IMG/VR virus record: IMGVR_UViG_2671180612_000001
Location: 1 to 64,000 of that record
From: a virus
Taxonomy: Duplodnaviria > Caudoviricetes
Reading direction: 5' to 3' (one strand)
DNA: 64,000 nt
Shown here: piece after piece, positions 38,535 to 64,000 of the stretch
How positions within the stretch are numbered: position 1 is the first letter of the stretch
Layout of the letters: each line of letters starts with the position of its first letter
The notes under the pieces: generated by a model
Databases searched by the model: none
What the model was told of the DNA's origin: nothing
What the model saw: the letters and a program-made list of their open reading frames with translations, nothing else
Made by a program: the position numbers and the translations under genes

Positions 38535-39422
38535 ATGTCCAACGTGCAGAACAACGTCTCCGGCGTTCCGTCGGCCACTCTCGCCAACATCGATGCGCTG
38601 CTCGATGACCTCGACCTCGACGCCGCGAGCGACGAGACGATCGAGGCGGTGGAGATGACCTCCCAGCTCGCGGACATTGTCGAGGAAGCCAACGAGGAGC
38701 CGGAGATCCTCGAGGGCGAGATCACGGAGCCGGAGACCGTCGAGGCGTCCGAGCAGGAAGCGATCGAGGCGAGCAGCGACGTCCTCGACGAGCTGGAGCT
38801 CACCGCGTCGCCGGCCGACGAGGACATTTCCGACGACCTCCTCGATGCGGTCGAGGCGCAGGAGACGCGCGACGAAGCCTATGCGGCCCAGACGGGCGGC
38901 GAGGTCGGCGACGTCGGCGAGGCTCCGGCCGCGGAAGCCAAGAAGACCTCGAAGATCCGCTCGGGCGAGAAGAACGCTTCGACGCCGCGCACGAACAAGG
39001 ACATGGGCGCCCTGCCCCTCGAAATGTTCCTGCTCACCAACGGCCAGCCGGCCGGCGACCTCGAGGCGACCAAGGCGGCGTTCATGAGCGCGATGCCGGC
39101 GACCAAGAAGGTGATCGAGAAGATCGAGAACGTCATGTGCGCCATCGGCGCCGAGAAGCTCCCGAGCATCTACGTCCAGAAGGCGTTCGCGGCGCTCGAC
39201 GCCAAGGAGACCGTCACGTCGTCCGATCTCGTCGGCGTCTTCAAGGCGGACTACTCGGAAGGCACGAGCCGCAGTCAGGCCGGGCAGATGATGGCCCTGT
39301 TCTCGTTCCTCAAGATCGCTGACCGCGACGGCAAGAACCTGAAGATCCGCAAGGACTCGACGCTCGCCGACCGGCTGCGCTCGATCATCGCCAACACCCA
39401 GGCGGCACCGGCGGGCGCGTAA
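38535..39422 (+). CDS. Hypothetical protein: acidic N-terminal half plus wHTH-like C-terminal domain
   Basis: AAGGAG RBS; YSEGTSRSQAGQMMALF motif resembles those in 60241 and 63096. Confidence 0.75.
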   Translation: MSNVQNNVSGVPSATLANIDALLDDLDLDAASDETIEAVEMTSQLADIVEEANEEPEILEGEITEPETVEASEQEAIEASSDVLDELELTASPADEDISDDLLDAVEAQETRDEAYAAQTGGEVGDVGEAPAAEAKKTSKIRSGEKNASTPRTNKDMGALPLEMFLLTNGQPAGDLEATKAAFMSAMPATKKVIEKIENVMCAIGAEKLPSIYVQKAFAALDAKETVTSSDLVGVFKADYSEGTSRSQAGQMMALFSFLKIADRDGKNLKIRKDSTLADRLRSIIANTQAAPAGA

Positions 39423-39461
39423 GCGCCCTCCTCCCCAACACGGCGCGTCCCCTCGCGCCTG

Positions 39462-39500
39462 GAAATCGAGAAATCTGGAAATCGCGAAATGTCGAAATCC
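39462..39500. repeat. 8-bp phased GAAATCNN array (5 units)
   Basis: GAAATCGA GAAATCTG GAAATCGC GAAATGTC GAAATCC. Confidence 0.8.
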
Positions 39501-39722
39501 GAACCCGAGGTCTCACTCTCGGTCCACCGGCACATGCGGAACCTCGAGACGGCCGGCCGGTCGTTCAAGGTCCGCATCGTGGCCCACGGTCTAGATCAGG
39601 TCTTCGAGCCGCTCGCCCACAGCGAGACGATCTTCCTCGGCAAGCGTCGTGGCAGCGGCTCGAACCGGGCCGTGTTCGTGAACCTCGCCAACGTCACCCT
39701 CATCGAAGTTCTGGAGGACTGA
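39489..39722 (+). CDS. Hypothetical protein
   Basis: Coupled to the next gene. Confidence 0.5.
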   Translation: MSKSEPEVSLSVHRHMRNLETAGRSFKVRIVAHGLDQVFEPLAHSETIFLGKRRGSGSNRAVFVNLANVTLIEVLED

Positions 39723-39991
39723 TGACCCACGCACCGTTCCAGGTCGAGCGCGCGCCGACCTACTCCGTCCCGTTCTTCGCGACGGGATTCAACACCTGGA
39801 AGATCCGCGTCGTCGGTGCGCCCGCAGACGAGCGTCCGTTCTGCGAGGTCTCGTTCCAGGACGCCGACACCAAGCACCCGGAATACGCCGCCTACATGCA
39901 GGGCGTGCAGGAGCGCGTCGAGCACGTCGCGGCCGTCATCAACGCCGGGCTCGAGGCGCAGGCCAAGCAGCGCGCCGCGCTCGACATTTGA
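39722..39991 (+). CDS. Hypothetical protein
   Basis: GGAGG RBS; TGATG overlap. Confidence 0.6.
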   Translation: MTHAPFQVERAPTYSVPFFATGFNTWKIRVVGAPADERPFCEVSFQDADTKHPEYAAYMQGVQERVEHVAAVINAGLEAQAKQRAALDI

Positions 39992-40003
39992 TCGGGACGG
40001 CCG

Positions 40004-40414
40004 ATGAAGACGATCCTCGACAACGAGGGCAATCGGCGCCTCTTCCAAGGCTGCGCCGCCCAGCCTGACACCCGGCACGGCTTCACGGTCCACGTCTGGC
40101 GCAAGAGCGGATACAGCGCCGGCTTCCAGCAAGGCGGCGACAATGTCCGCTCGCCGGCCGCGTTCAGCGCGCCGCACTTCCGAGCCGGCGTCGGCTACCG
40201 CGTCCGCGTGATCCCGAAAGCCCCACTCGACCCCGACCTTCTCGAAATCTGGAAAGCGAGATTTCCATGCAAGACACCGAACGTCCCCTCAAGGAAGGGC
40301 AACGCATCCGCATGGTCCGGATGGAAGACGATCCGCATCCGATCGAAGCGGGCACGGAAGGCACGGTCACGAGCTACGCCCACTTCTACGCGGGTCGCTG
40401 GACGATCGGCGTGA
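40004..40414 (+). CDS. Hypothetical protein (3' part overlaps the next gene; end uncertain)
   Basis: Fills the gap after 39991; reads through a GAAATC array into the DUF4314 gene region. Confidence 0.4.
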   Translation: MKTILDNEGNRRLFQGCAAQPDTRHGFTVHVWRKSGYSAGFQQGGDNVRSPAAFSAPHFRAGVGYRVRVIPKAPLDPDLLEIWKARFPCKTPNVPSRKGNASAWSGWKTIRIRSKRARKARSRATPTSTRVAGRSA

Positions 40415-41455: not shown

Positions 41456-42004
41456 ATGACGAACGACACGAACGCGAACGCCGCCGAGACCGAGTTCGAG
41501 GTCACGGTCGCGGCCGACTACCGGCTCTTCGCGACGACGAAGGTCAAGGCGCCGAGCAAGGAAGCAGCCCTTGAGATTCTCAAGCGCCAGGCCGCGGCGA
41601 AGGTGAATTTCATCGCGGCCGACATGCCCGACTGGCGCTTCGGCGACGGCGAGCTGATCGGCGGGATCACGCTCGTCGCGATGGATCACCAGGAGGAGAC
41701 CGTCCTCGAAGACGTGGAGCTCCTGGACGAGGACGCCGGCCGGGCGAGCTTCGAGCAGCTTCAGAGCATGGTGGACACGATCGCCGGCCTGAAGTCCTCG
41801 CACGACCTCATCCGCTACCCGCTGACCGATGACGAGCCGGCCGAGCTCGCCATCATCGCCGAGCAGCACGAGCACGACACCGGCGACGGCCTCGATCTCC
41901 TCGACACGCTGATCGTCGAGGCGCGCAAGTTCTCGATCGTCCGGCCGGATGGCTACGGCGGTCCTGCGGACTTCGAGGAGCCCGAGGCCGAAACCACGAG
42001 CTGA
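41456..42004 (+). CDS. Acidic hypothetical protein
   Basis: AGGAG RBS; operator at 41416-41431. Confidence 0.65.
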   Translation: MTNDTNANAAETEFEVTVAADYRLFATTKVKAPSKEAALEILKRQAAAKVNFIAADMPDWRFGDGELIGGITLVAMDHQEETVLEDVELLDEDAGRASFEQLQSMVDTIAGLKSSHDLIRYPLTDDEPAELAIIAEQHEHDTGDGLDLLDTLIVEARKFSIVRPDGYGGPADFEEPEAETTS

Positions 42005-42053
42005 CAGTTCGAAATCCATCAATCCGGAAATCTCGAAATCTGGAAATCGCGAA

Positions 42054-43610
42054 ATGAACGCCATTGTCCCGCGCGCGACGATCGAGGAGATCGTCGGCCA
42101 CCGTAACCGAGCGGTCGCGCTCTACACCGACGCCTACGAGCAGGCGGTGCTCGCCGACGATCTCGTCAAGAAGGCGCGCGAGGCGTGGTCCGCGGCGGCT
42201 CCCTCGCGCACTGCCTATCACGGCCAGCACGAAGAGGTTGCCGCCTTCAACGCGCTCGTCTCCATCCCGGACATGAGCCAATACGTCCGCACGGCGACCA
42301 GGCTGATCGACGCCGGCATCTGGGCGTCCATCATCGAGCGCACGGACCTCGAGCGCCTCATGGACAAGGAGGCCAAGGACAAGTTGCGCGAGCAGATGCG
42401 CTACGTCCCGGAGCGGGTCAGCCATCGCACCGGCGAGATCATCAACCAGGACGAGATCGACAAGGGCCTGCCGCCCGTCACCGTCGAGAACGTCGCGGCG
42501 ACCCTCGAGCACTTCATGCTGGACGCCGAGACGATCTGGCGCCGGGGCATCGCCAACGCCTTCGCCAAGCTCGACCGGCGCTTCCGCTCGCACGACGGCT
42601 GGAAGATCGGCTCGCGCGTGATCCTGACCCGCTGCTTCAACGATTGGGGCTCCTGGAGCTCCTATTCCAACGAGCGCGAGACCCTGATCGACATCGAGCG
42701 GATCTTCACGATCATGGACGAGGGCGTCACCAAGGCGACCTATGCGACGTCCATCGGGCAGATCGACCAGGAGCGCAAAGGCGTCCACGCGCCGGCGCAG
42801 ACCGAGGTCGACACGACCTACTTCAAGATCCGCATCTTCAAGAACGGGAACGCGCACCTCTGGATGAAGCGCGACGACCTAGTCGAGAAGGTGAACAAGC
42901 TGCTCGGCGAGTATTATGGCGACGCGATCGGCGACCACGAGAACGTGCCGACGGACGAGGACGTCCTCAACAACCCGAAGACCTCGCTCGCCAAGAATAT
43001 GGGCTTCTTCCCGACGCCCGTCGCGGTCGGCGAGCGCGCGATCGGCAACGCCAAGCTCTACGCCAACAAGGACGGCCCGCCGCTGCGCATCCTCGAGCCG
43101 TCGGCAGGCGAGGGGAACATCGCCAAGCTCCTGGCCCGGCCGCTGACGCTGGAGTCCAAGTGGGAGTGGGACGAGAAGGCGCGCGAGCGTGTCGAGATCG
43201 TGCTGGCGTCGCAAAAGCCCATCGTCCATGTCGTCGAGCTCCATCCCGGCCGGGCGAACGAGCTGAAAGGGCAGGGGCTCTACGAGAAGGTCGTCCAGAA
43301 CGACTTCCTCCTGGTGCAGCCGCACCCGTCCGCGCTCTACGACCGGATCGTCATGAACCCGCCGTTCGACCGGGATCGCGACATCGATCACGTCTACCAC
43401 GCGCTCAAGTTCCTCAAGGAGGACGGGATCCTCGTCTCGGTCATGTCGGCCGGCGTCGAGTTCCGGACCACGAAGAAGGCGATCGCGTTCCGGGAGCTCG
43501 TCGAGAAGCGGGGAGGGTGGTTCGAGGATCTGCCCGACCGCTCATTCGCCGAGAGCGGGACCAACATCAACACGGTGCTTTGCATCATCGGTCGCAAGAC
43601 CCGTTGGTAG
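42054..43610 (+). CDS. DUF4942-like domain fused to an N6-adenine DNA methyltransferase
   Basis: YFKIRIFKNGNAHL; FFPTP; motif I ILEPSAGEG; motif IV MNPPF. Confidence 0.85.
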   Translation: MNAIVPRATIEEIVGHRNRAVALYTDAYEQAVLADDLVKKAREAWSAAAPSRTAYHGQHEEVAAFNALVSIPDMSQYVRTATRLIDAGIWASIIERTDLERLMDKEAKDKLREQMRYVPERVSHRTGEIINQDEIDKGLPPVTVENVAATLEHFMLDAETIWRRGIANAFAKLDRRFRSHDGWKIGSRVILTRCFNDWGSWSSYSNERETLIDIERIFTIMDEGVTKATYATSIGQIDQERKGVHAPAQTEVDTTYFKIRIFKNGNAHLWMKRDDLVEKVNKLLGEYYGDAIGDHENVPTDEDVLNNPKTSLAKNMGFFPTPVAVGERAIGNAKLYANKDGPPLRILEPSAGEGNIAKLLARPLTLESKWEWDEKARERVEIVLASQKPIVHVVELHPGRANELKGQGLYEKVVQNDFLLVQPHPSALYDRIVMNPPFDRDRDIDHVYHALKFLKEDGILVSVMSAGVEFRTTKKAIAFRELVEKRGGWFEDLPDRSFAESGTNINTVLCIIGRKTRW

Positions 43611-53643: not shown

Positions 53644-53743
53644 AAAACGGTTGCGGGAAGATCGCAGGAACAAATTCCTGTGGACGCACATCGACTCGCA
53701 TCCCGACCAGGGGTCGTCTATATTCAGCATCAGGAGAGCAATC

Positions 53744-54127
53744 ATGAGCGCAGAAGAGAAGCCAAACCTCGGGAACCGTCGTCGTGGCCGCATCGGCAAT
53801 GAGATCACGGGTCCGCGTGGCGCCGCCGCGGTGATCGGCACCAAGGACGGCCAGGTTTCGCCGCGCACCTACGTCGTTGAGACGCGCGACCTCAATGCCG
53901 GCCCGCGCATCGTGGTTGAAGGGACGTCCCGTCACCTAGCGATGGACCCGTATCCGCCCGAGAAGATGGACCCGCAGTCCTCCAAGCTGATGGCCGCTAT
54001 CTTCGGCGAGAAGGAAGCGCAGACCACGCAGCGCGTGGCGCGCGCCGATGACGACCAGGTGCGCTCGGCCGCGAAGCGCCTCCTCAAGAAGCGCATGGGC
54101 CTCATGACGGCGCTCGCCCACCGCTGA
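53744..54127 (+). CDS. Putative antitoxin for Doc
   Basis: Immediately upstream of doc with TGATG coupling; C-terminal amphipathic helix. Confidence 0.6.
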   Translation: MSAEEKPNLGNRRRGRIGNEITGPRGAAAVIGTKDGQVSPRTYVVETRDLNAGPRIVVEGTSRHLAMDPYPPEKMDPQSSKLMAAIFGEKEAQTTQRVARADDDQVRSAAKRLLKKRMGLMTALAHR

Positions 54128-54552
54128 TGATCTTCCTCACTGTCGAACAGGTCATCGGGGCTCACGACATGATCCTCGAGGCGACCGGCATAGGTGTGCC
54201 CGGCGTCAAGGATGCCAACACGCTCGCATCGGGCGTCGACCGGGCCGAGACCCGCGCCTATTACAACGAAAGCGCTGACGCGGCTTCCCTGGCCGCGGCA
54301 GTGTGCTTCGGCATTGCCAAGGCGCATGGATTCAACGACGCCAACAAGCGCACCGCGGCCTTCTGCTGCGAACTCTTCCTGAACCTCAATGGGCTGGATC
54401 TCGATCTCTCGGACAACCTGTTCGAGGACATGATCGTGAACCTCGCGGCCGGCGCGCTCAACGAGGAGGGCTTCGCCAACATGATCCGCCCGCTGCTACG
54501 GCCGGCGAGCGACGACCTGGAAGAGGTCGAGGATCACGCGCCCGGCCCGTGA
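54127..54552 (+). CDS. doc: Doc (Fic family) toxin
   Basis: HGFNDANKRTA Doc motif; MIFLTVEQV...H N-terminus. Confidence 0.9.
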   Translation: MIFLTVEQVIGAHDMILEATGIGVPGVKDANTLASGVDRAETRAYYNESADAASLAAAVCFGIAKAHGFNDANKRTAAFCCELFLNLNGLDLDLSDNLFEDMIVNLAAGALNEEGFANMIRPLLRPASDDLEEVEDHAPGP

Positions 54553-56733: not shown

Positions 56734-58371
56734 TCAGCGGTTCCACGCCGGCCGCGGGCTCGCCACCTTGCGGAAGACGAGCGGCGAGACCTTGATCTGG
56801 AACGCCTTGGACGCCTCGCGGCGCCAGGACATCGCGAGGTTGAAGAGGTCCATGTAGGAGCTCACGCCCGTCGCAGCGTCGAGACCCTCCATCTTGTGCG
56901 GCAGGGTGCGCAGCAGGAGCTTCTCACCGTTGCGGAACGGGATCGGCACGCTGTTCTCCGCGCCCCGACGGTTGACGCCGCCCGTGACCGGCATCGTCAG
57001 CCCGCCGCGGTAGCGGAGCTGCAAGGACGCGCCGACGAAAATCGTCTCCTCGGACAGAAGCTCGACCTCGCAGAGCGCTTCCATCCAGTCGCCGGCGACG
57101 ATCCCGAGGGCCGAGTAGCTCGGCATGACCGGCGTGAGCGACAGCGAGTTGACGCCAGCAGCCGGAGCGGCCGGGGTGATGGTGAAGACCTGCTTCTCGG
57201 CAACGCCGGCCTCGATCACCTCCTTCGAGGCGACGATCGCTTCGGTCTGGCCGGCACCGCGGTTCACCGTGACGCTCGTTGCGACGCTGCCGGTGATCCC
57301 GCCGTTCTTGGTGCCGTTGGTGCCGAGGAACCCGCCCGTCGCGAGCAGATTGCCGGCGCGCGAACGATCCACGAAATCGCCTGCCGTCACCATGGAGCGC
57401 AGCACGTCGAGGAGCATCCCCGGTTCGGAGTTGCGGATCCAGTGACCGACCGACGTCATGTGGATGCCGTCCTCGAGGATCGGCTGGCCGGACGCGATCG
57501 CGTCCCGGATGAGCTTGCGATCATCGACGACCTTCACGCCCTCGCGAGAGCCGAGCGTCGCGCACCAGGCGCCGAAGTTTTCGAGCGTCACATGGCGCGG
57601 ATCGCCGACCTTCCAGTCGGTGCGCGGGGTCGGCATGAGGACCACGGCCCAGATGCCGGCATAGCGGAGCATGGTGAGGATGCGATCGAGCCGGAGCTTC
57701 AAGGTCTCGAGCGTGATCGGGGTCTTGCCGTCGGCCTGGCGCCGGCTGTTCACGTCGTTGGTGCCGATGTCCACGACCACGATGTCGGGCCGCATGTCGA
57801 TCGTGCGCTTCAGGCGCTCGTAGCCGCCGTTGAGGTCGTCACCGCCCAGACCTGCCTGCGATCCGGCGAAGCCCTTGGCGTCGCCCGCGCGGTTCTGCGC
57901 ATAGTCCTTATCGAACCAGGAGTTGACGTTGAAGCGCCCGTCCATGGACTGAAGAAGGCCCATGTCGCCGAACGCCGCGCCGGTGTTGATGTCGATGCGG
58001 TTGTGGAGCGCCGGCGGGACCGCGTTGCCGAAAGCGTAGCCCGAGCGCGCGATGAAGCTGTGGCCGAGACCCATGACCTTGGCGCCGGTCTTCAGTGGAA
58101 GAGCGGGAAGAGTGCGCGGGGTCGCGAAAGGAGCGCTGGTCGGCAGAACCTCTGCGGTGAGAGACGCGCCGTCGGGATCGGCGGGAAGGGTAAGCTTCCA
58201 GAAGCCGAACTCGTCGGCATGAATCGTTCCGGCGAGCGAGGCGCCGGCCTTGACCGTCACCGGCACGCCAGCACGCGCCCGGCCCGAGACGACGAACGTC
58301 TTGACGTCATAGGCGTCGATCGTGGGAACCGTATCAGCGGGGATCTTCGAGTAGGGACCGTATCCGGACAT
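56734..58371 (-). CDS. SGNH/GDSL esterase with N-terminal Ig-like domain
   Basis: GLGHSF; IGTND; DGIH; N-terminal VSGRA...ADEFGFW. Confidence 0.75.
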   Translation of the reverse strand: MSGYGPYSKIPADTVPTIDAYDVKTFVVSGRARAGVPVTVKAGASLAGTIHADEFGFWKLTLPADPDGASLTAEVLPTSAPFATPRTLPALPLKTGAKVMGLGHSFIARSGYAFGNAVPPALHNRIDINTGAAFGDMGLLQSMDGRFNVNSWFDKDYAQNRAGDAKGFAGSQAGLGGDDLNGGYERLKRTIDMRPDIVVVDIGTNDVNSRRQADGKTPITLETLKLRLDRILTMLRYAGIWAVVLMPTPRTDWKVGDPRHVTLENFGAWCATLGSREGVKVVDDRKLIRDAIASGQPILEDGIHMTSVGHWIRNSEPGMLLDVLRSMVTAGDFVDRSRAGNLLATGGFLGTNGTKNGGITGSVATSVTVNRGAGQTEAIVASKEVIEAGVAEKQVFTITPAAPAAGVNSLSLTPVMPSYSALGIVAGDWMEALCEVELLSEETIFVGASLQLRYRGGLTMPVTGGVNRRGAENSVPIPFRNGEKLLLRTLPHKMEGLDAATGVSSYMDLFNLAMSWRREASKAFQIKVSPLVFRKVASPRPAWNR

Positions 58372-58374
58372 CGA

Positions 58375-58653
58375 TCAGCCCTTCGTCACGATTGCGGAGC
58401 CCGGCAGACGCTTGGCGCGGGCATAGACGGTCTCGGTGGTGAGAGAGCCGAACGAGAAGGAGCGATGCGCGCCGGCGCCGACCGTATGGGCCTCGTCGTT
58501 CTGCGGATCGGGAAGCTCGCTATCGAGGCGAACGAGGATGTCGGTGCCCTCGCTCTCGACCAGGAGCTCCGAGACGCCAGAGGCAATCTCGGTCCACTCG
58601 TCGCGGGTGAGGTTGAAACGCTTGGTCGGCTGGAAAGCCATGATGAACTCCAT
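58375..58653 (-). CDS. Small beta-rich hypothetical protein
   Basis: First gene of the minus-strand operon. Confidence 0.6.
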   Translation of the reverse strand: MEFIMAFQPTKRFNLTRDEWTEIASGVSELLVESEGTDILVRLDSELPDPQNDEAHTVGAGAHRSFSFGSLTTETVYARAKRLPGSAIVTKG

Positions 58654-58678
58654 TGGGAACAGGAGCCACCATCATAGC

Positions 58679-58694
58679 AAGTAAGCGCTTACTT
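58679..58694. promoter_or_regulatory. Perfect palindromic operator AAGTAAGCGCTTACTT
   Basis: Perfect 16-bp palindrome between divergent genes. Confidence 0.8.
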
Positions 58695-58764
58695 AACCAA
58701 GGGGAACCATATGGAAAGAGGGAAGAAGGCAGGCTGCGCGGGCACCAGAATCAGGAGAGACCCG

Positions 58765-58962
58765 GTGAGCAAAGACCTGGACGAGTTCGATCGCCTTCTC
58801 GCGGCCTACACGGAAGCGGCCTACAAATACGGAGCTGCCGAGGAGAGCAAGAAGATCAAGCGCCTGGCGGACGCATCACAGGACAGGGGCCTGACACACA
58901 ACGAGCTCCGGACATTCGTCGCCGATCGCCTCAAGAGGCTCGAGGAAGCAGAGCGCTACTAG
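58765..58962 (+). CDS. Small hypothetical protein
   Basis: GTG start after AGGAGAG. Confidence 0.5.
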   Translation: MSKDLDEFDRLLAAYTEAAYKYGAAEESKKIKRLADASQDRGLTHNELRTFVADRLKRLEEAERY

Positions 58963-59346
58963 CGCTTCGATTAAGGGCGATGGACCTTTACACAGAGGTC
59001 CAGTCCGACCCAGGCCAGGCTGACAAGCGTAAACCAGGCGGTTGACGCAAACCCTTGTGAGACTGGAAACGACCTTTACGCGAGCTTTACGCCCGGAGAA
59101 CCTGAAACCTCGATTTCGGGAAAGACGTAAACGTCGACCCGATCGCGCGCACAGACCAAGAGAACAGACCAGCGCAGCGCAAAGAGCACCAGAAACGCAC
59201 AGAGCAGCTCACCAGCGCGATCCAAGCGTCTGACGCGCACAGAGAGAGCGAAACACTCGGGAAGCTATTCAGCGACGAACCCTGACGATTTCGAGAAAAC
59301 AGACCAAACGCATACCCCGCAGCATCGAAAACATATCCGAGATCAT

Positions 59347-59475
59347 CACCCATAGAGAGCGACAGAGCACGCAGACCCATAAGAGACGCATGAGCACCGG
59401 AAAGCAGCACAGCACCCATAGAGAGGGACAAGCGCACGCTTCCGGCATGTGAGAGCAGAGAGCACGCATAGAGGG
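59347..59475. repeat. CACCCATAGAGAG-type direct repeats in a T-poor non-coding tract
   Basis: Exact copies at 59347 and 59413; variants near 59375 and 59463. Confidence 0.55.
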
Positions 59476-59731
59476 GCATAGGGGGAGATAGTGAGCTGGT
59501 CTGGTGGGGTTGGCGCCTCGCCACAAACAGCCTCGAACTTCCAGACCGACCACCTCAACCCGAACGCACGCGCCGTAAGCATCCGCTTTCAATCCACACG
59601 CGCTCATGAGACAAACGATCAACGACGCTTGCAGAGCTGGGCGAGCGTTCGTGTGTTGCTGACGGCAACGTCGAGGTCCACCAGCTACCAGCCGGTCTCC
59701 GGCTACCTGATCCGACAACGCCACAATTTCA

Positions 59732-59771
59732 GGGCTCGCTTGATCCTACGGGGTCGGCGAGCCTCTTTTTT
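59732..59771 (+). terminator. Intrinsic terminator with no adjacent CDS
   Basis: GGCTCGCTTGATCC-tacg-GGGTCGGCGAGCC followed by a T run. Confidence 0.65.
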
Positions 59772-60240
59772 GGCTGACGGAAAAATTAGGAACGGAGGCA
59801 CTCCCCTGTAGGAGCATAGCCGTCACGGGGAACCCATGCCCCGCGTCCTTGGAACGCCGATCCCCACACGAGCCGGAGATCCATGGGTTTCCACGGCGCC
59901 CCGTGGTTTTCCGAGGAGGCCCGCGGGGTTTCCCGTGCCGGAGACGTCCGCCCCTAATCGCCTCTCGTCTACATTAGAAACCTGTCTAGTAGATAACTTA
60001 CCTTTGTAGGTGAGTGGCATTTAGCTCCGGCGCGATCCTTTGCACGGAAACGCGCTCACGCACGACGGCTCCCGGCCCGCTCCTAAGTAATTCCTTCCGT
60101 ATATCCGCCCGAAACGCGCCGACAAGACCCCGCGACTACACGCTTCAAGCCCATATCGTGATGCTTCATATTCACAATGCAAGCAACGAAGAAAACAAGA
60201 GCTTGCAAGCGATAGCAACGCACACACAAGGGTTTATCAA

Positions 60241-61110
60241 ATGTCGAAGCGCACCGCGAAGAACACCGCCGCCCAGATCGAGAACGTCGTCCTCGAGGGC
60301 GAGATCATCGCTCCGGTCGTCGAGCAGATCACCGAGACCAACGAGCCCACGGAAGCCGAGCTCGACGCCATCGAGACCGCCGAGGTCCAGTCCGAAGCCT
60401 ACCAGGCCCAGGCGTCCGAGATCGACGAGGTCAACCCGGACCAGGCACCGGCAGGCGACGAGCCCGAGCTCCTCACCGACGAGCCGGAGCAGAAGACGCT
60501 CGCCCAGATGATCGAGGGCATCGAGCGCGACCACGCCGTCGCCATGCAGCACCACATCGCCGCGGAGATCGACGACCGCATGGACTACGAGAGCGACAAG
60601 GGGAACGAGACGATCCAGCGCTCCTTGAAGAGCTCCCGCGCGAAGATGACCACCGACCTCCTCGCCGCCTACGCCTTTGCCGCGACGAGCGTCGACCCGT
60701 CGGTCTTCAACGTCGGACGCGCCTCGACGAACCGCTACAACGTCTACGCCATCGACAAGGTCGCGGACCTGGCGCGCTCGCTCGCCTCGGGGCACTTCAT
60801 GAAGAACGCCATCAACCGCGCTGTGTGCCGCTCGCTCTTCACGTTCCGCCACTCCGGCGAGCGCTTCACGATGGAGATCGCCAAGGCAGCGTGCTCCGAC
60901 AAGATCCGCGTGTCGCCGGCGATCTCGCGCCATCTGATCCGTCACACGGTCTCGGCGTCGACCGCGCCCACCCAGGCGTCGTCCACCATGCAGGCCCTCG
61001 AGACGCTCGGCATCGTCAAGAACGTCGGCACCGCCCGCGGCGCCGTCTACGAGCTGACCGACACGGCGCAGGCGCGCGCCCTCGAGGAGCTCTGCACGAA
61101 GGCAGCGTAA
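60241..61110 (+). CDS. Hypothetical protein: acidic N-terminus plus conserved domain paralogous to 63096-63692
   Basis: Typical codon usage; NVYAIDK, AKAAC, STAPTQASSTMQAL; hairpin terminator at about 61122-61144. Confidence 0.8.
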   Translation: MSKRTAKNTAAQIENVVLEGEIIAPVVEQITETNEPTEAELDAIETAEVQSEAYQAQASEIDEVNPDQAPAGDEPELLTDEPEQKTLAQMIEGIERDHAVAMQHHIAAEIDDRMDYESDKGNETIQRSLKSSRAKMTTDLLAAYAFAATSVDPSVFNVGRASTNRYNVYAIDKVADLARSLASGHFMKNAINRAVCRSLFTFRHSGERFTMEIAKAACSDKIRVSPAISRHLIRHTVSASTAPTQASSTMQALETLGIVKNVGTARGAVYELTDTAQARALEELCTKAA

Positions 61111-61322
61111 GGGAGAGGAGGGAAAGGTGCTTCGGCGCCTTTTCTTTGCGCCTGGCTCGCGGGGCGGTTTGGTATGGCTGGGACTAAATGGGAGCCGCCC
61201 TGTGTCGCGGGGTTTTTAGGAACGGGGCGCTCCCCTGTGTAGGCGAGGACACCGTCGGGCCGGCGCGGTAGACAGAGGAAAGCCGTGGGTGCCCACGGGA
61301 GCCGCCGAGCCGGAGGAATGCC

Positions 61323-61541
61323 ATGGAACTGATCCTCGACATGCAGGCAGAGGAAGGGGAATCGCAGCAGGAGTTGGACGCTCTCATCACCCTGGCCTTC
61401 ATTTACAAGCTGAAGGTCAAGACGGAAGGAGGCGGGAAAGCAGAGCGCCCCTTCGCACGGGTTCATGGGGTAATCGACCCTGCCGTCTTGCATCGGATCC
61501 TGTCGGAGATGCAGCCGGACCCGAAGCCTGAAAGCCCCTGA
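61323..61541 (+). CDS. Hypothetical protein
   Basis: GGAGG RBS. Confidence 0.45.
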   Translation: MELILDMQAEEGESQQELDALITLAFIYKLKVKTEGGGKAERPFARVHGVIDPAVLHRILSEMQPDPKPESP

Positions 61542-61613
61542 ACAAGCGTCTGTGACCCCATAGCGAGCAATGCGACTCTCATCGTGTCAGCAACACGAGA
61601 GCGAGACATCGCC

Positions 61614-61862
61614 ATGCAGATCGCACAAGCTCCCCAGACGCCCGCCGAGATCGCTGCCCTCCGGATCTCCCTCGACTTCCTGTCGTTCCAGCAGGGCCAC
61701 TTCGAGCCCTACAACCCCAAGCGCGTCGCGCGCACCATCGGCGAGATCCGGCGCCGGCGCGCCCTCGAGCTCCAGACCCAGCGTGCCGCGCACCTCATCA
61801 AGCGAATGTGCATGGGACTGGTCCTAGTCCTGGCAGGCGCAGGCGTGGTCTCTCTCCTCTAG
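61614..61862 (+). CDS. Hypothetical protein with C-terminal TM segment
   Basis: Preceded by the TCAGCAACAC leader motif. Confidence 0.55.
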   Translation: MQIAQAPQTPAEIAALRISLDFLSFQQGHFEPYNPKRVARTIGEIRRRRALELQTQRAAHLIKRMCMGLVLVLAGAGVVSLL

Positions 61863-62144
61863 GCGCCTGTCACAACCTGCAGGCGCTCAACGCGGGCCAG
61901 GCGAGTCACCCAACAGCTCGACCTGGTCCGCACCCGTCCAGGCCCGTCCAGGTCCAGTAAGGCCAGGCACGGGTCTTTTCGCGTCAGGCTGCGCCCCGCG
62001 GGCCTCCTCGGCGGCTCCCGGCCGAGCTCTTCCCCACCAGACACCTCTCGACCGCGCTCAACGTGCCGTCGCTGCACGCTTATAGCCCGTAAGTCGCTGA
62101 TTTATATTCATAATTGTCAGCAACACGAAACGAGAGAGTTTCAC

Positions 62145-62483
62145 ATGACCCGCACTGCTTCGCTCAACGCTTCCGCCTCGATCGTCGCTCGCTTCGCCGA
62201 TGCCATCGAGCTTGCCGATGCGTTCAAGGTCGATCATGTGCCCGCCAACATCGACGCCGACCTGTTCAAGCGCTCGTCCGAGGGAACGCTGCGCTCCGCT
62301 GGCGACCGCTTCCGGCTCGCGATCCAGCATTCCGGACTGTCGCCCGACGACATGCCTGCTATTCGTGACCAGGGGATGCAGCTCGTCGAGGAGCGCAAGC
62401 GCATTCGCCGGGAAGAAGCCGCTCACCGTGCCGCCAAGCGTGAAGCCGCGCTCGCGAGCCGGGAAGAGCGCGAATACGCTTAG
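62145..62483 (+). CDS. Hypothetical protein
   Basis: AT-rich upstream region and TCAGCAACAC leader motif. Confidence 0.65.
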   Translation: MTRTASLNASASIVARFADAIELADAFKVDHVPANIDADLFKRSSEGTLRSAGDRFRLAIQHSGLSPDDMPAIRDQGMQLVEERKRIRREEAAHRAAKREAALASREEREYA

Positions 62484-62823
62484 ATCCAGCCTAGCGGAGA
62501 GCGTCGCGTCACAGCGGCGCTTTCTTGTGGGCTGGGCGAGCGGGACGGGTCGGGGCGGAGACGGATCAAGGGGGCGGGGAGGGGACGCGCCTGCCTCGAG
62601 GAATTTTGGAACGGCTGGGCTAAATGGGACTCGGGGAAACGACTGCGGGGCGTCGTTTCCCCTTGTTGCCGCCGGCCCACCTCCGACTGCCCCGTGGGTG
62701 CCCGCGGCGAATACCGTGCCAACGGAAATTAGGAACGGGGAGGAAAGGACGTGGGCGCCCAAGATCCGGACGGGGATGGGCCTATGCGGCGCCCCGAGGG
62801 CGCCCGCGGGGCGGGGGCGCGCG

Positions 62824-62942
62824 TAGGACGCCCCGCGACGGGGAGCAAATCACAAAACCGGGGCAACGCGTAGCTGACTACGGGTCAGTCGGGGCGCGCG
62901 ACTAGGACGACGCGCGTCGGGGAGCAAGTCACGAAAGCGGGG
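62824..62942. repeat. Two imperfect 40-bp direct repeats
   Basis: TAGGACG...CGGGGAGCAARTCACRAAA.CGGGG at 62824-62863 and 62903-62942. Confidence 0.65.
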
Positions 62943-63005
62943 CTCACAGGGGCGTGACGCAATTCATTTTCGTTCGTCGCGACTCATTCCTTTTCGTTTT
63001 TGCGT

Positions 63006-63021
63006 AAGTAAGCGCTTGCTT
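63006..63021. promoter_or_regulatory. Palindromic operator copy (AAGTAAGCGCTTGCTT)
   Basis: Upstream of the GG/CC-free gene, near a TATAAA -10-like element. Confidence 0.7.
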
Positions 63022-63095
63022 ATTCATGTGCGTCGTATAAATTCATTTGTGTCGCACACAGACGACATCAGCAACACACAAAGAAAGACACTCAC

Positions 63096-63692
63096 ATGAC
63101 GCAGATCGCTTCTAACGACTTCGCTGCTAAGCTCGCTGCATACGCTGACGCTGCTAAGCTCAACATCGTGACGCGCAAAGACAAAGTGTCTGACGCGAAC
63201 GCTAAGCACTTCGATCGCTCGATCGCGATGCTTGCGAATGAGACGATCGCACAAGCTCTTATCGCTGCTGACGTCGATGCGTCGCGCTACACGTCGCAAG
63301 TCTATGCGTTCAAGAAAGAGAACGCTATTCTTGACTATCTCTTCAATAATAAGACGATGCAGAACTATATCGCAGAGATTTTTGTCAGCGCGTTTCGTAA
63401 GCATCACGTCAAGAACGCAGCGTTGACGAAGAGCGAAGCGAAGCTTGCGCTTAACAAGTCTGCGAAGCTTAGCGAAAGCGAAGCAACGTATATCGTGCAA
63501 CAGTCGAAAATCATCGATGAAAGCACTGTGAACGCGCAGCATAAGACGACGCTAGACGCTTTCGTCAATCTGCGTATGTTCTCGCAAGTCTCGACGTTCG
63601 AAACGCGCGACGCTTACGCAATCAATCTCGAAAGCGACATGACGCAGCGCATGATTGCGCGTCTTAACATCGCTGATATGTTCGCTGCGTAA
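63096..63692 (+). CDS. 198-aa Gly/Pro/Trp-free protein encoded without GG/CC; paralog of 60241-61110
   Basis: Intact ORF with operator, leader motif and terminator hairpin; collinear similarity to the 60241 C-terminal domain. Confidence 0.85.
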   Translation: MTQIASNDFAAKLAAYADAAKLNIVTRKDKVSDANAKHFDRSIAMLANETIAQALIAADVDASRYTSQVYAFKKENAILDYLFNNKTMQNYIAEIFVSAFRKHHVKNAALTKSEAKLALNKSAKLSESEATYIVQQSKIIDESTVNAQHKTTLDAFVNLRMFSQVSTFETRDAYAINLESDMTQRMIARLNIADMFAA

Positions 63693-63708
63693 ATCGACAC
63701 AGACGCTC

Positions 63709-63735
63709 GCTGACGCGCTTCGATAGCGCGTCAGC
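63709..63735 (+). terminator. Hairpin after the GG/CC-free gene
   Basis: GCTGACGCGCT-tcgat-AGCGCGTCAGC perfect 11-bp stem, itself GG/CC-free; no clear U tract. Confidence 0.55.
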
Positions 63736-64000
63736 TACTCGCGAAGCTCTCACGCTCAAACGCTCGCTCTTGAGCTTCTATGACGATCCCAGAGCGTGAG
63801 ACACCCCAGCCACAGCGCGCGACACTCGCCCAATCCCTCCTCGCGCATCGCGTGACATCGGGGACACAGCCCCAGGGGACGACGTGTGCTGGGTGGACAC
63901 ACTCTGTTGCACGGGGACCATGTGGCGGGAAGGACACGAGGTCCTAGAAGCCCCGCCACAGGTCGAAGGGGATGCCTTTTGAGGGCGAGACACTCCCCGG

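What the first reader, a model, noticed from the sequence alone, without database searches (positions are those of the whole stretch)
60241..63692. The GG/CC-free gene has a normally encoded paralog about 2 kb upstream
Seen by eye alignment, in collinear order (60241 vs 63096): AYAFAATSVDPSVF vs AQALIAADVDASRY; NVYAIDKVADL vs QVYAFKKENAI; FTMEIAKAACSDKIRVS vs LTKSEAKLALNKSAKLS; VSASTAPTQASSTMQALETLGIVKNV vs IDESTVNAQHKTTLDAFVNLRMFSQV. Gly/Pro positions of 60241 (VDP, APT, LGI) are replaced in 63096 (VDA, VNA, LRM). Inference: one copy of a duplicated domain was purged of GG/CC at the cost of amino-acid changes, giving an internal control that argues for selection at the DNA level. It could be a stealth early copy plus a normal copy carrying an acidic N-terminal extension.
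Basis: partly seen in the sequence, partly recalled or inferred. Interest (0 to 1): 0.8.

Follow-up and report, generated by a model that had tools for sequence, protein, structure and literature searches.

The report
Stealth-coded gene with a normal twin
A phage-plasmid of soil bacteria carries two related DNA-binding-type genes: one is written normally, and the other sits in a cassette that contains not a single GG or CC, a rule kept across the whole phage lineage that points to an unknown pressure acting on the DNA or RNA itself.

Summary
ORF A (60241-61110, 289 aa) and ORF B (63096-63692, 198 aa) are true but distant paralogs. Pairwise BLASTP is weak (E 0.089). Both AlphaFold models have the same helix order ending in a winged helix.

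B lies in a 799-nt GG/CC-free stretch; the next longest in the 111.6-kb genome is 82 nt. The ban acts on nucleotides. Codon junctions have 0 GG/CC against about 20 expected, both untranslated flanks are clean, and 58 are expected from genome codon usage.

The rule is ancient and conserved. In 19 non-redundant related loci, the second paralog has 0-6 GG/CC in 17. The same holds in the cultured Rhizobium phage B1VFA. Thirty B-family proteins (5978 residues) contain only 3 Gly, 1 Pro and 0 Trp. A copies are normal everywhere.

Two natural exceptions show the constraint can lapse. The direction of change (purged or refilled) and "early" expression are not shown.

The agent is unknown. I favour evasion of a factor that reads the CC:GG step in DNA. 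RNA-level, modification and mutational readings stay open.

The parts
60151..60230 (+). GG/CC-free promoter/leader just upstream of gene A, ending at its GG-containing ribosome-binding site
   Evidence: At 79 nt it is the third-longest GG/CC-free stretch in the genome. A GG/CC-free stretch of 37-79 nt lies within about 400 nt of the annotated A start in the window and 19 related loci; in most it abuts the start codon.
60241..60525 (+). Gene A, acidic and poorly ordered N-terminal extension (aa 1-95), absent from B
   Evidence: 24 D+E against 4 K+R. pLDDT 48-72. Length and sequence vary across the family.
60526..61110 (+). Gene A, conserved domain (aa 96-289): helical part plus C-terminal winged helix, normally encoded
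   Evidence: pLDDT 83-98. 278 relatives at E<=1e-3. 129 GG/CC in the gene against 135 +/- 7 simulated. Aligned to B by hhalign at E 8.6e-19.
62990..63788 (.). GG/CC-free island: a whole cassette of promoter region, leader, gene B, hairpin and trailer
   Evidence: 799 nt without GG or CC; the next longest in the genome is 82 nt. About 100 expected from its own base composition.
63006..63021 (.). 16-bp near-palindrome AAGTAAGCGCTTGCTT, 75 nt upstream of B; one copy of a dispersed intergenic motif
   Evidence: 12 matches (<=2 mismatches) in the window against 0.00 in shuffles. 24 in the whole genome.
63068..63095 (+). Leader of B with a purine-rich, GG-less ribosome-binding region (AAAGAAAGA)
   Evidence: 73% identical over 45 nt to the leader of ORF 62145 (repeat D4). 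GAGAGA-type motifs precede B genes in relatives.
63096..63692 (+). Gene B: 198 aa, no Gly/Pro/Trp, 0 GG/CC; paralog of the A domain
   Evidence: AlphaFold model pLDDT 91.3, pTM 0.87.
63709..63735 (+). Perfect 11-bp-stem hairpin (terminator-like or RNA-stabilising) built without GG/CC
   Evidence: All 20 B genes examined have a perfect 7-14-bp hairpin starting 4-31 nt after the stop codon.

Best explanation
A and B are ancient paralogs of one family of about 190-residue proteins (a helical part plus a C-terminal winged helix, so probably DNA-binding). They are carried by a lineage of about 105-125-kb siphophage phage-plasmids of Hyphomicrobiales, with Rhizobium phage B1VFA as a cultured member.

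A is a normally encoded core gene with an added acidic tail. B sits in a self-contained cassette: its own promoter and leader, sometimes one or two extra small unrelated genes, and a hairpin. Purifying selection on the nucleic acid keeps the whole cassette free of the CC:GG dinucleotide step. The loss of Gly, Pro and Trp from the protein is a by-product.

Most likely reason (inferred, not shown): some activity reads CC/GG in DNA. It could be a very short-specificity nuclease or nickase, or PAM-dependent interference or spacer capture. Such a target is too frequent (17,218 sites) to be purged genome-wide, unlike the 4-6-bp sites that this lineage does purge. So only the one cassette that must stay intact and expressible is made target-free: a 'stealth' regulator or counter-defence module.
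For: Shown:
- Homology: hhalign 99.1%, E 8.6e-19. Models have the same order of secondary-structure elements. A and B hit the same three ESM-Atlas clusters (TM by query 0.65-0.74 for B; 0.71-0.83 for A on two of them by structure, the third by features only).
- Nucleotide-level ban: 0 GG/CC against 57.8 +/- 5.3 expected. Codon junctions 0 against 238. Pooled 17,371 nt of islands from 18 loci hold only 7 CC and 3 GG, while other dinucleotides are ordinary.
- Conservation: all 19 non-redundant viral loci with downstream DNA have a second paralog. In its homologous domain GG/CC is 0 in 11, 1-6 in 6 and 61-66 in 2; A copies have 63-121. The count is also 0 in B1VFA and in a Methylocystis MAG.
- Protein family: 18 + 12 B-family proteins, 5978 residues in all, have 3 G, 1 P and 0 W.
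- Uniqueness: one island per genome in G000 and in B1VFA.
- Ongoing constraint: in L012 the B gene has refilled to 66 GG/CC and 61.6% GC while its protein still has only 3 G/P/W. Its DNA is 67% identical to L015, against 84-86% for the flanks.
- Cassette character: all 20 B genes are followed by a perfect GG/CC-free hairpin. Orientation relative to A flips among close relatives. Extra small unrelated ORFs inside larger islands are also GG/CC-free.
- The lineage demonstrably uses site purging: GTAC 0 against 129 expected, and eight 6-bp palindromes at 0 in G000.
Against: - No CC/GG-specific agent was identified in the phage or in its hosts.
- Type I-F CRISPR (CC PAM, recalled) is rare in the host order: Csy3 in 4 of 401 genomes. 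Cas9 is commoner (45 of 401 over cut-off), but its PAMs there are unknown to me.
- It is unclear why protecting one gene would help when the rest of the genome stays targetable.
- In the window the island holds only B, with no extra small genes.
- The island roughly matches a transcription unit. That fits an RNA-level or transcription-coupled cause equally well.
- B has no match to known anti-defence or regulator families.
- Timing of expression is unknown.
- GTAC purging and the GG/CC ban do not co-vary across loci.
Confidence: 0.5

Rival explanations
1. The constraint is on the RNA. The B transcript must lack GG and CC to escape an endoribonuclease or RNA-binding repressor, or to be translated independently of Shine-Dalgarno pairing. 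The DNA pattern is only its shadow.
For: The free zone starts near a plausible promoter and usually ends within tens of nt after a terminator-like hairpin; in 9 of 18 loci with a measurable end it ends no more than 52 nt past the hairpin. B genes use GG-less GAGAGA-type ribosome-binding regions, whereas A leaders end in GGAG-type sites. The relative B1VFA encodes an RtcB-type RNA ligase and tRNAs, which hints at RNA-level conflict.
Against: One RNA-level factor would have to ban both GG and CC on the sense strand; the strand symmetry is more simply a double-stranded-DNA property. In several loci the free zone runs more than 200-400 nt beyond B on either side. I recall no factor with this specificity.
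Confidence: 0.17
2. The cassette avoids a DNA modification. Phage or host enzymes modify C or G in CC/GG context, and B must stay unmodified, for example to be read by unmodified-DNA-dependent host machinery or to escape a modification-dependent (type IV) nuclease.
For: A dinucleotide-scale target suits a modification enzyme. The genome encodes a DUF4942 protein with a faint adenine-methyltransferase similarity.
Against: No cytosine or guanine modification gene was found in the proteins scanned (30 proteins in Pfam) or in the B1VFA annotation. The only methyltransferase hint is adenine-type and far below cut-off. B1VFA was sequenced by standard Illumina without any remark (paper PMC12509600, whole text read).
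Confidence: 0.1
3. A mutational footprint. The cassette is repeatedly exposed as single-stranded DNA to a CC-specific cytosine deaminase (an APOBEC3G-like signature). CC and GG are therefore edited away, and lineages keep only editing-proof alleles.
For: Island GC drops to about 50% against 64% in the genome. The transcription-unit-sized footprint fits transcription-coupled exposure. At conserved Gly columns of A, B mostly has N, S, R, D, K or E (137 of 194), all reachable by G-to-A changes.
Against: At conserved Pro columns of A, B mostly has Ala (47 of 141). Leu, Ser and Phe, the C-to-T products, total 17 of 141. CG and GC are enriched about 1.8-fold rather than eroded. Both strands are equally clean. 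The proteins are well conserved and fold confidently. I recall no such bacterial deaminase defence.
Confidence: 0.1
4. There is no real relationship. The eye alignment is chance similarity between two helical proteins, and the GG/CC-free stretch is a compositional accident or an assembly artefact.
For: Pairwise BLASTP E 0.089. hhalign with only two B sequences gave just 52.8% probability.
Against: hhalign with 18 B sequences: 99.1%, E 8.6e-19. An intermediate B clade hits the A profile at 1e-26 to 1e-34. The island recurs in more than 20 independent contigs and in a cultured phage. 0 against about 100 expected.
Confidence: 0.01

Closest known systems
Restriction-site avoidance in phage genomes, including region-limited avoidance in first-expressed anti-restriction DNA (T7 gene 0.3 region; T5 first-step-transfer DNA lacking EcoRI sites; both recalled, not checked here)
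   Same: A short sequence motif is eliminated by selection on the DNA, at some cost to coding. This same lineage purges GTAC and several 6-bp palindromes genome-wide.
   Different: Here the motif is a dinucleotide, the purge is absolute, and it is confined to one cassette of 0.5-1.7 kb in mid-genome. It removes three amino acids from a whole protein family. No matching enzyme is known. GGCC and CCGG are not avoided elsewhere in these genomes.
PAM depletion in phages (Kupczok and Bollback 2014, PMC4246573, search listing only; P. aeruginosa phages and type I-F, PMC12174588, passages read)
   Same: CC/GG is the dinucleotide PAM of type I-F and of some Cas9 enzymes (recalled). The 2025 paper reports reduced PAM frequency together with reduced G+C, as in this island.
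   Different: Published depletion is a modest genome-wide trend, not a total local ban. Csy3 was found in only 4 of 401 genomes of the host order, and Cas9 in 45 of 401. No spacer evidence was gathered.
Dinucleotide suppression in eukaryotic RNA viruses (CpG/UpA, ZAP; PMC3829696 and PMC7232450, search listings only)
   Same: A dinucleotide-level constraint, independent of codons, imposed by a host sensor.
   Different: Those are partial, genome-wide, RNA-level and eukaryotic. Here CpG is enriched 1.8-fold and GG/CC is absent.
Anti-CRISPR/Aca-type anti-defence operons (recalled)
   Same: A conserved helix-turn-helix-type gene with palindromes in its promoter region, next to small, fast-changing genes of unknown function.
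   Different: B is a winged-helix protein unrelated to known Aca families by sequence. The small genes lie downstream and are absent from the window. No function was tested.
Winged-helix DNA-binding proteins (MarR/ArsR-type regulators, linker-histone globular domain, kleisin and ORC winged helices)

Membership tests
One protein superfamily containing A and B | Significant profile-profile similarity over the whole domain | tested here: met
   hhalign probability 99.1%, E 8.6e-19, 177 columns. Reciprocal HMM hits.
One protein superfamily containing A and B | Same fold | tested here: met
   The models show the same order of nine helices, a beta-hairpin and a final helix. A and B hit the same ESM-Atlas clusters, two of them by structure for both proteins (TM 0.74 and 0.65; TM 0.83 and 0.71). 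A direct superposition of my two models could not be run.
Winged-helix DNA-binding domain | Three-helix core followed by a beta-hairpin wing, matching solved winged helices | tested here: inconclusive
Any curated protein family (Pfam, NCBIfam, PHROGs, PDB sequences) | Score over the family threshold | tested here: not met
   No Pfam hit over cut-off. PHROGs E >= 0.016. NCBIfam none. PDB profile searches gave nothing for B and only spurious cytochrome b562 fusion hits for A.
Restriction-site avoidance | Motif strongly under-represented against expectation | tested here: met
   0 against 58 (codon model) or about 100 (composition) in B and the island. 10 occurrences in 17,371 pooled nt.
Restriction-site avoidance | Motif is the target of a nuclease present in the hosts | not tested
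   No host or phage enzyme with CC/GG specificity was sought systematically; none is annotated in B1VFA.
CRISPR PAM avoidance | Hosts carry a CRISPR type whose PAM is the avoided motif | tested here: inconclusive
   Csy3 (type I-F) in 4 of 401 and Cas9 over cut-off in 45 of 401 genomes of the order of the Faunimonas host. None in the three host genomes holding relatives for Csy3. PAMs of these Cas9 enzymes were not determined.
CRISPR PAM avoidance | Host spacers target this phage lineage | not tested
   No spacer search was run.
Anti-defence operon with HTH regulator (acr-aca type) | Small variable genes beside a conserved HTH gene; regulator binds inverted repeats in its own promoter | tested here: inconclusive
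   Eight small co-oriented GG/CC-free ORFs in six of the larger islands; two have one relative each and six have none. No PHROG hits. Palindromes lie upstream of B. The window's island has none of the small genes. Binding was not tested.

The most novel reading that the evidence does not exclude
Hyphomicrobiales, or these phage-plasmids themselves, possess an undescribed nucleic-acid-targeting activity with only dinucleotide (CC:GG) specificity. The B cassette is the phage's target-free counter-measure or master regulator. A whole protein family has been forced into a 17-letter amino-acid alphabet for as long as this phage lineage has existed, and it drifts back within a short evolutionary distance when the pressure lapses (L012).
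Probability: 0.3. Interest if true: 0.9.

Novelty: new variant of a known kind. Interest (0 to 1): 0.8.

Why it matters
Motif avoidance by phages is known for 4-6-bp restriction sites and, weakly, for PAMs. An absolute, cassette-limited ban on a dinucleotide was not found in print in my searches: and the B1VFA genome paper read in full. This ban is conserved over a deep phage radiation and strong enough to delete Gly, Pro and Trp from a protein family.

The normally encoded paralog in the same genome, and two natural relapses, give built-in controls. They make selection on the nucleic acid hard to escape. The pattern points to a defence or counter-defence principle with two-base specificity, or to an equally unknown RNA-level rule.

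It is directly testable. A cultured phage (B1VFA) and its Rhizobium host carry the same cassette. The family is also a natural example of a folded protein of about 200 residues built without Gly, Pro or Trp.

Tried and rejected
- Two literature searches failed on a too-short term. The T5 comparison therefore rests on recall.

Searches that gave nothing useful:
- The look-up of sequencing runs: no RNA holder listed, only small-share DNA holders.
- Rfam: no match in 58000-64000. No tRNA in the window.
- The sigma-70 consensus scan found no promoter in 59000-64000. My promoter readings are by eye only.
- PDB sequence and fold searches gave no specific relative.
- PHROGs gave nothing for eight small island ORFs, ORF 62145 or the downstream membrane protein.

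Ideas considered and set aside:
- tRNA-level or amino-acid-level cause. Rejected because codon junctions and untranslated flanks are also clean.
- General palindrome or restriction-site avoidance inside the island. Rejected because GCGC, CGCG, TGCA, GATC and the like are present and CG/GC are enriched.
- First-injected DNA, as in T5 or T7. No support. The island is mid-genome relative to the B1VFA record start, the two genomes are circularly permuted, and the contig has no terminal repeat. The physical ends are not known to me.
- Co-variation of the GG/CC ban with GTAC purging. None seen.
- Invertible segment. No convincing flanking inverted repeats.
Full report
WHAT IS THERE. The window is the first 64 kb of a single 111,560-bp contig of 64.3% G+C. 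ORF A is 60241..61110 (+, 289 aa) and ORF B is 63096..63692 (+, 198 aa). B lies in a stretch of 799 nt, about 62990-63788, that contains neither GG nor CC. The next longest such stretch in the whole genome is 82 nt, and the genome has 17,218 GG/CC in all. The stretch is 50% G+C, so its own base composition predicts about 100 GG/CC. It covers 107 nt upstream and 96 nt downstream of B. B contains no Gly, Pro or Trp. Among 55 predicted proteins of the genome, the next lowest G+P+W content is 5.4% and the median is 12.9%.

ARE A AND B RELATED? Pairwise BLASTP is suggestive only: E 0.089, 22% identity over 104 residues.
- A has a large family: 278 proteins at E<=1e-3, many on contigs of 104-120 kb from Mesorhizobium, Methylobacterium and Faunimonas.
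- A full HMMER scan of 1.84 billion representatives found 18 B-family proteins, the query included.
- hhalign of 40 A sequences against two B sequences gave 52.8% probability.
- Against all 18 B sequences it gave 99.1%, E 8.6e-19, 177 columns, A 104-289 against B 14-194.
- A B-family HMM finds the window's A protein at E 3.3e-17 among 5183 six-frame ORFs. In this genome and in B1VFA it finds only the A and B genes.
- A clade of B proteins in relatives (L008, L010, L015 and others) is intermediate, for example RFNVYSAQKVANIAR and ASTADTQSSSSINALQ. It hits the A profile at 1e-26 to 1e-34.

STRUCTURE.
- AlphaFold models are confident: B has pLDDT 91.3 and pTM 0.87; the A domain has pLDDT 83-98.
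- Both show the same order of helices ending in helix, beta-hairpin, helix.
- Both proteins retrieve the same ESM-Atlas clusters. By structure, the 264-aa and 207-aa clusters match both (B: TM by query 0.74 and 0.65; A: 0.83 and 0.71). The 241-aa cluster matches B by structure (0.72) and A by features only (0.88).
- I could not superpose the two models directly.
- No Pfam, NCBIfam, PHROG or PDB sequence family fits.
- A residues 1-95 are acidic (24 D+E, 4 K+R), poorly ordered and variable in the family.

THE BAN ACTS ON NUCLEOTIDES.
- Keeping B's protein and drawing synonymous codons from the genome's usage gives 57.8 +/- 5.3 GG/CC (minimum 40 of 3000 draws). Uniform usage gives 33.7 +/- 5.1. 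The observed count is 0.
- The same test on A gives 135 +/- 7 against 129 observed.
- Shuffling each B gene's own codons among synonymous positions gives 13-25 junction GG/CC per gene. Pooled over 12 B genes that is 238 (minimum 206 of 2000), against 0 observed.
- Ala GCC, Thr ACC, Ser TCC and Arg CGG/AGG are among the commonest codons of this genome and are never used in B.
- So tRNA supply or amino-acid composition cannot be the cause.

IT IS CONSERVED.
- The A alignment retrieved 21 IMG/VR loci.
- A GG/CC-free stretch of 458-1531 nt lies 1-6 kb downstream of A in 17 of the 21. One locus (L021) ends at the A gene.
- I dropped L021 for that reason and L014 because its sequence is identical to L013. 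All 19 remaining loci hold a second paralog. In its homologous domain GG/CC is 0 in 11, 1-6 in 6, and 61-66 in 2 (L012, L019). A copies have 63-121.
- The cultured Rhizobium phage B1VFA (MT770738.1) has the same arrangement. B1VFA_058 is A. B1VFA_061 is B: 199 aa, no G/P/W, in an 851-nt island that is the only one in that genome.
- A Methylocystis MAG has a 1257-nt island.
- The 18 representatives have 2 Gly, 1 Pro and 0 Trp in 3590 residues. Twelve further B proteins have 1 Gly in 2388 residues.
- Pooled islands of 18 loci (17,371 nt) contain 7 CC and 3 GG. Other dinucleotides are ordinary, and CG and GC are enriched about 1.8-fold.

EVOLUTION.
- In a quick maximum-likelihood tree of 59 domains (SH-aLRT support only, some long branches), all A copies plus the second copy of L019 form one clade (support 99). 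B copies are far more divergent and surround it. The root is unknown, so 'purged' cannot be told from 'refilled'.
- A and B subclades are broadly congruent. Both copies therefore seem to have been inherited together since before the radiation of this lineage.
- First exception: L012's B is nested among clean B genes. It has 66 GG/CC and 61.6% G+C, yet only 3 G/P/W. Its DNA is 67% identical to L015 where the flanks are 84-86% identical. This is a recent relapse toward genomic composition.
- Second exception: L019, which is the same record as L028 from Roseospira marina (a Rhodospirillales host), has a fully normal second copy.
- At the ten columns where A conserves Gly or Pro, B has mainly Asn, Ser, Arg, Ala or Asp in place of Gly, and Ala, Asp, Ser or Asn in place of Pro.

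ANATOMY OF THE CASSETTE.
- All 20 B genes examined are followed 4-31 nt after the stop by a perfect 7-14-bp hairpin built without GG/CC. GG/CC returns from 28 nt before the hairpin's end (L008) to 358 nt after it.
- Upstream, the clean zone reaches 25 to more than 400 nt.
- B genes use purine-rich GG-less ribosome-binding regions.
- In the window and 19 related loci a GG/CC-free stretch of 37-79 nt lies within about 400 nt of the annotated A start. In most it abuts the start and ends at a GGAG-type site. The A and B leaders share a TATTCT-like element and a small hairpin.
- B's orientation relative to A differs among close relatives.
- Larger islands hold one or two extra small, co-oriented, GG/CC-free ORFs that are mostly unrelated between loci. 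The window's island has only B.

SURROUNDINGS.
- The element is collinear with B1VFA but circularly permuted.
- B1VFA is described as a siphophage with phage-plasmid features: parA, parB, repC and a 3.6-kb terminal repeat (PMC12509600, whole text read). That paper does not mention the island.
- Near the locus are a Fic/Doc protein and two GDSL hydrolases.
- Also nearby are a membrane protein with a sub-threshold SieB match, ParA, a UvsW-like helicase, ParB-N and the terminase.
- No cytosine or guanine modifying enzyme was seen in the 30 proteins scanned in Pfam or in the B1VFA annotation. A DUF4942 protein has a faint adenine-methyltransferase similarity.

WHAT COULD IMPOSE IT.
- The lineage is a heavy user of site purging. 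GTAC occurs 0 times against 129 expected. ACCGGT, CACGTG, CAGCTG, CCCGGG, GCATGC, GGGCCC, GTGCAC and TGGCCA all occur 0 times in this genome. B1VFA has GTAC 0 against 161.
- GTAC is absent from most related loci but not all, and this does not track the GG/CC ban.
- A two-base target cannot be purged genome-wide. My preferred reading is therefore that only the one cassette that must survive and be expressed is made target-free. This is inference.
- Type I-F CRISPR, whose PAM is CC (recalled), is rare in the host order: Csy3 in 4 of 401 genomes. Cas9 is present over cut-off in 45 of 401. Some type II-C Cas9 enzymes use CC-type PAMs (recalled).
- The rough match of the island to a transcription unit keeps an RNA-level or transcription-coupled cause open.
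- A pure deaminase footprint fits poorly with Pro-to-Ala being the commonest replacement (47 of 141, against 17 of 141 for Leu, Ser and Phe) and with CG/GC enrichment.

VERDICT.
- Direction of change, timing and agent remain open.
- I found no prior description. Supplements were not consulted.

Noticed in passing
whole genome G000 (window 1-64000 and beyond); B1VFA loci L022-L025; loci L001-L029: Extreme genome-wide site avoidance. GTAC occurs 0 times against 129 expected. ACCGGT, CACGTG, CAGCTG, CCCGGG, GCATGC, GGGCCC, GTGCAC and TGGCCA all occur 0 times (expected 13-29). CTGCAG occurs once, AGGCCT and ACGCGT twice, and CTCAG 8 times against 100. B1VFA has GTAC 0 against 161 and AGGCCT 0. GTAC is absent from most related loci but normal in L001, L007, L013 and L019.
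   Followed up: partly
window 650, 3576, 19951, 21045, 23907, 23981, 26309, 35733, 43669, 48300, 58679, 63006 (16 nt each), and 12 more beyond 64 kb: A 16-bp palindrome AAGTAAGCGCTTACTT is dispersed over the genome: 12 matches in the window against 0.00 in shuffles, and 24 genome-wide at <=2 mismatches. Most copies lie 8-90 nt upstream of start codons, and one lies upstream of B. B1VFA has at least 18 AAGTAA-N4-TTACTT copies; other relatives have AAGTCA-N4-TGACTT. It could be an operator of a global regulator (possibly A or B) or an RNA element.
   Followed up: partly
window 58963-60240: A 1.3-kb stretch upstream of A has no convincing ORF and is T-poor in part (about 59130-59480), with repeated CACAGAGAG/CATAGAGAG-like words. 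B1VFA has a similar unannotated 1.5-kb gap upstream of its A gene (record 38843-40333). Rfam found nothing from 58000 onward.
   Followed up: no
window 61586-61613, 62117-62161, 63068-63112: A shared leader, TCAGCAACAC...GAGAG/GAAAG...ATG, precedes ORFs 61584, 62145 and B (45 nt, 73% identical between the last two). This suggests a set of small genes with a common promoter and translation-start design.
   Followed up: no
window 41949-43610: A 553-aa protein with DUF4942 (E 1.5e-43) and a far sub-threshold match to an adenine DNA methyltransferase family. It is a possible orphan methyltransferase.
   Followed up: no
window 54127-54552 and 53651-54127: A Fic/Doc-family protein (E 2.2e-11) preceded by a 158-aa ORF, possibly an addiction module, in keeping with a plasmid lifestyle.
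   Followed up: no
L012:1967-2641 against L015:11707-12672; L019/L028:15260-15976: Natural relapses of the ban. L012's B has 66 GG/CC but only 3 G/P/W. The Roseospira marina element has a fully normal second paralog.
   Followed up: yes
L030:50-691 (genome 64050-64691): A 213-aa membrane protein directly downstream of the island has a sub-threshold match to superinfection-exclusion protein SieB (E 7.8e-4, 19.5 bits against a cut-off of 26).
   Followed up: no
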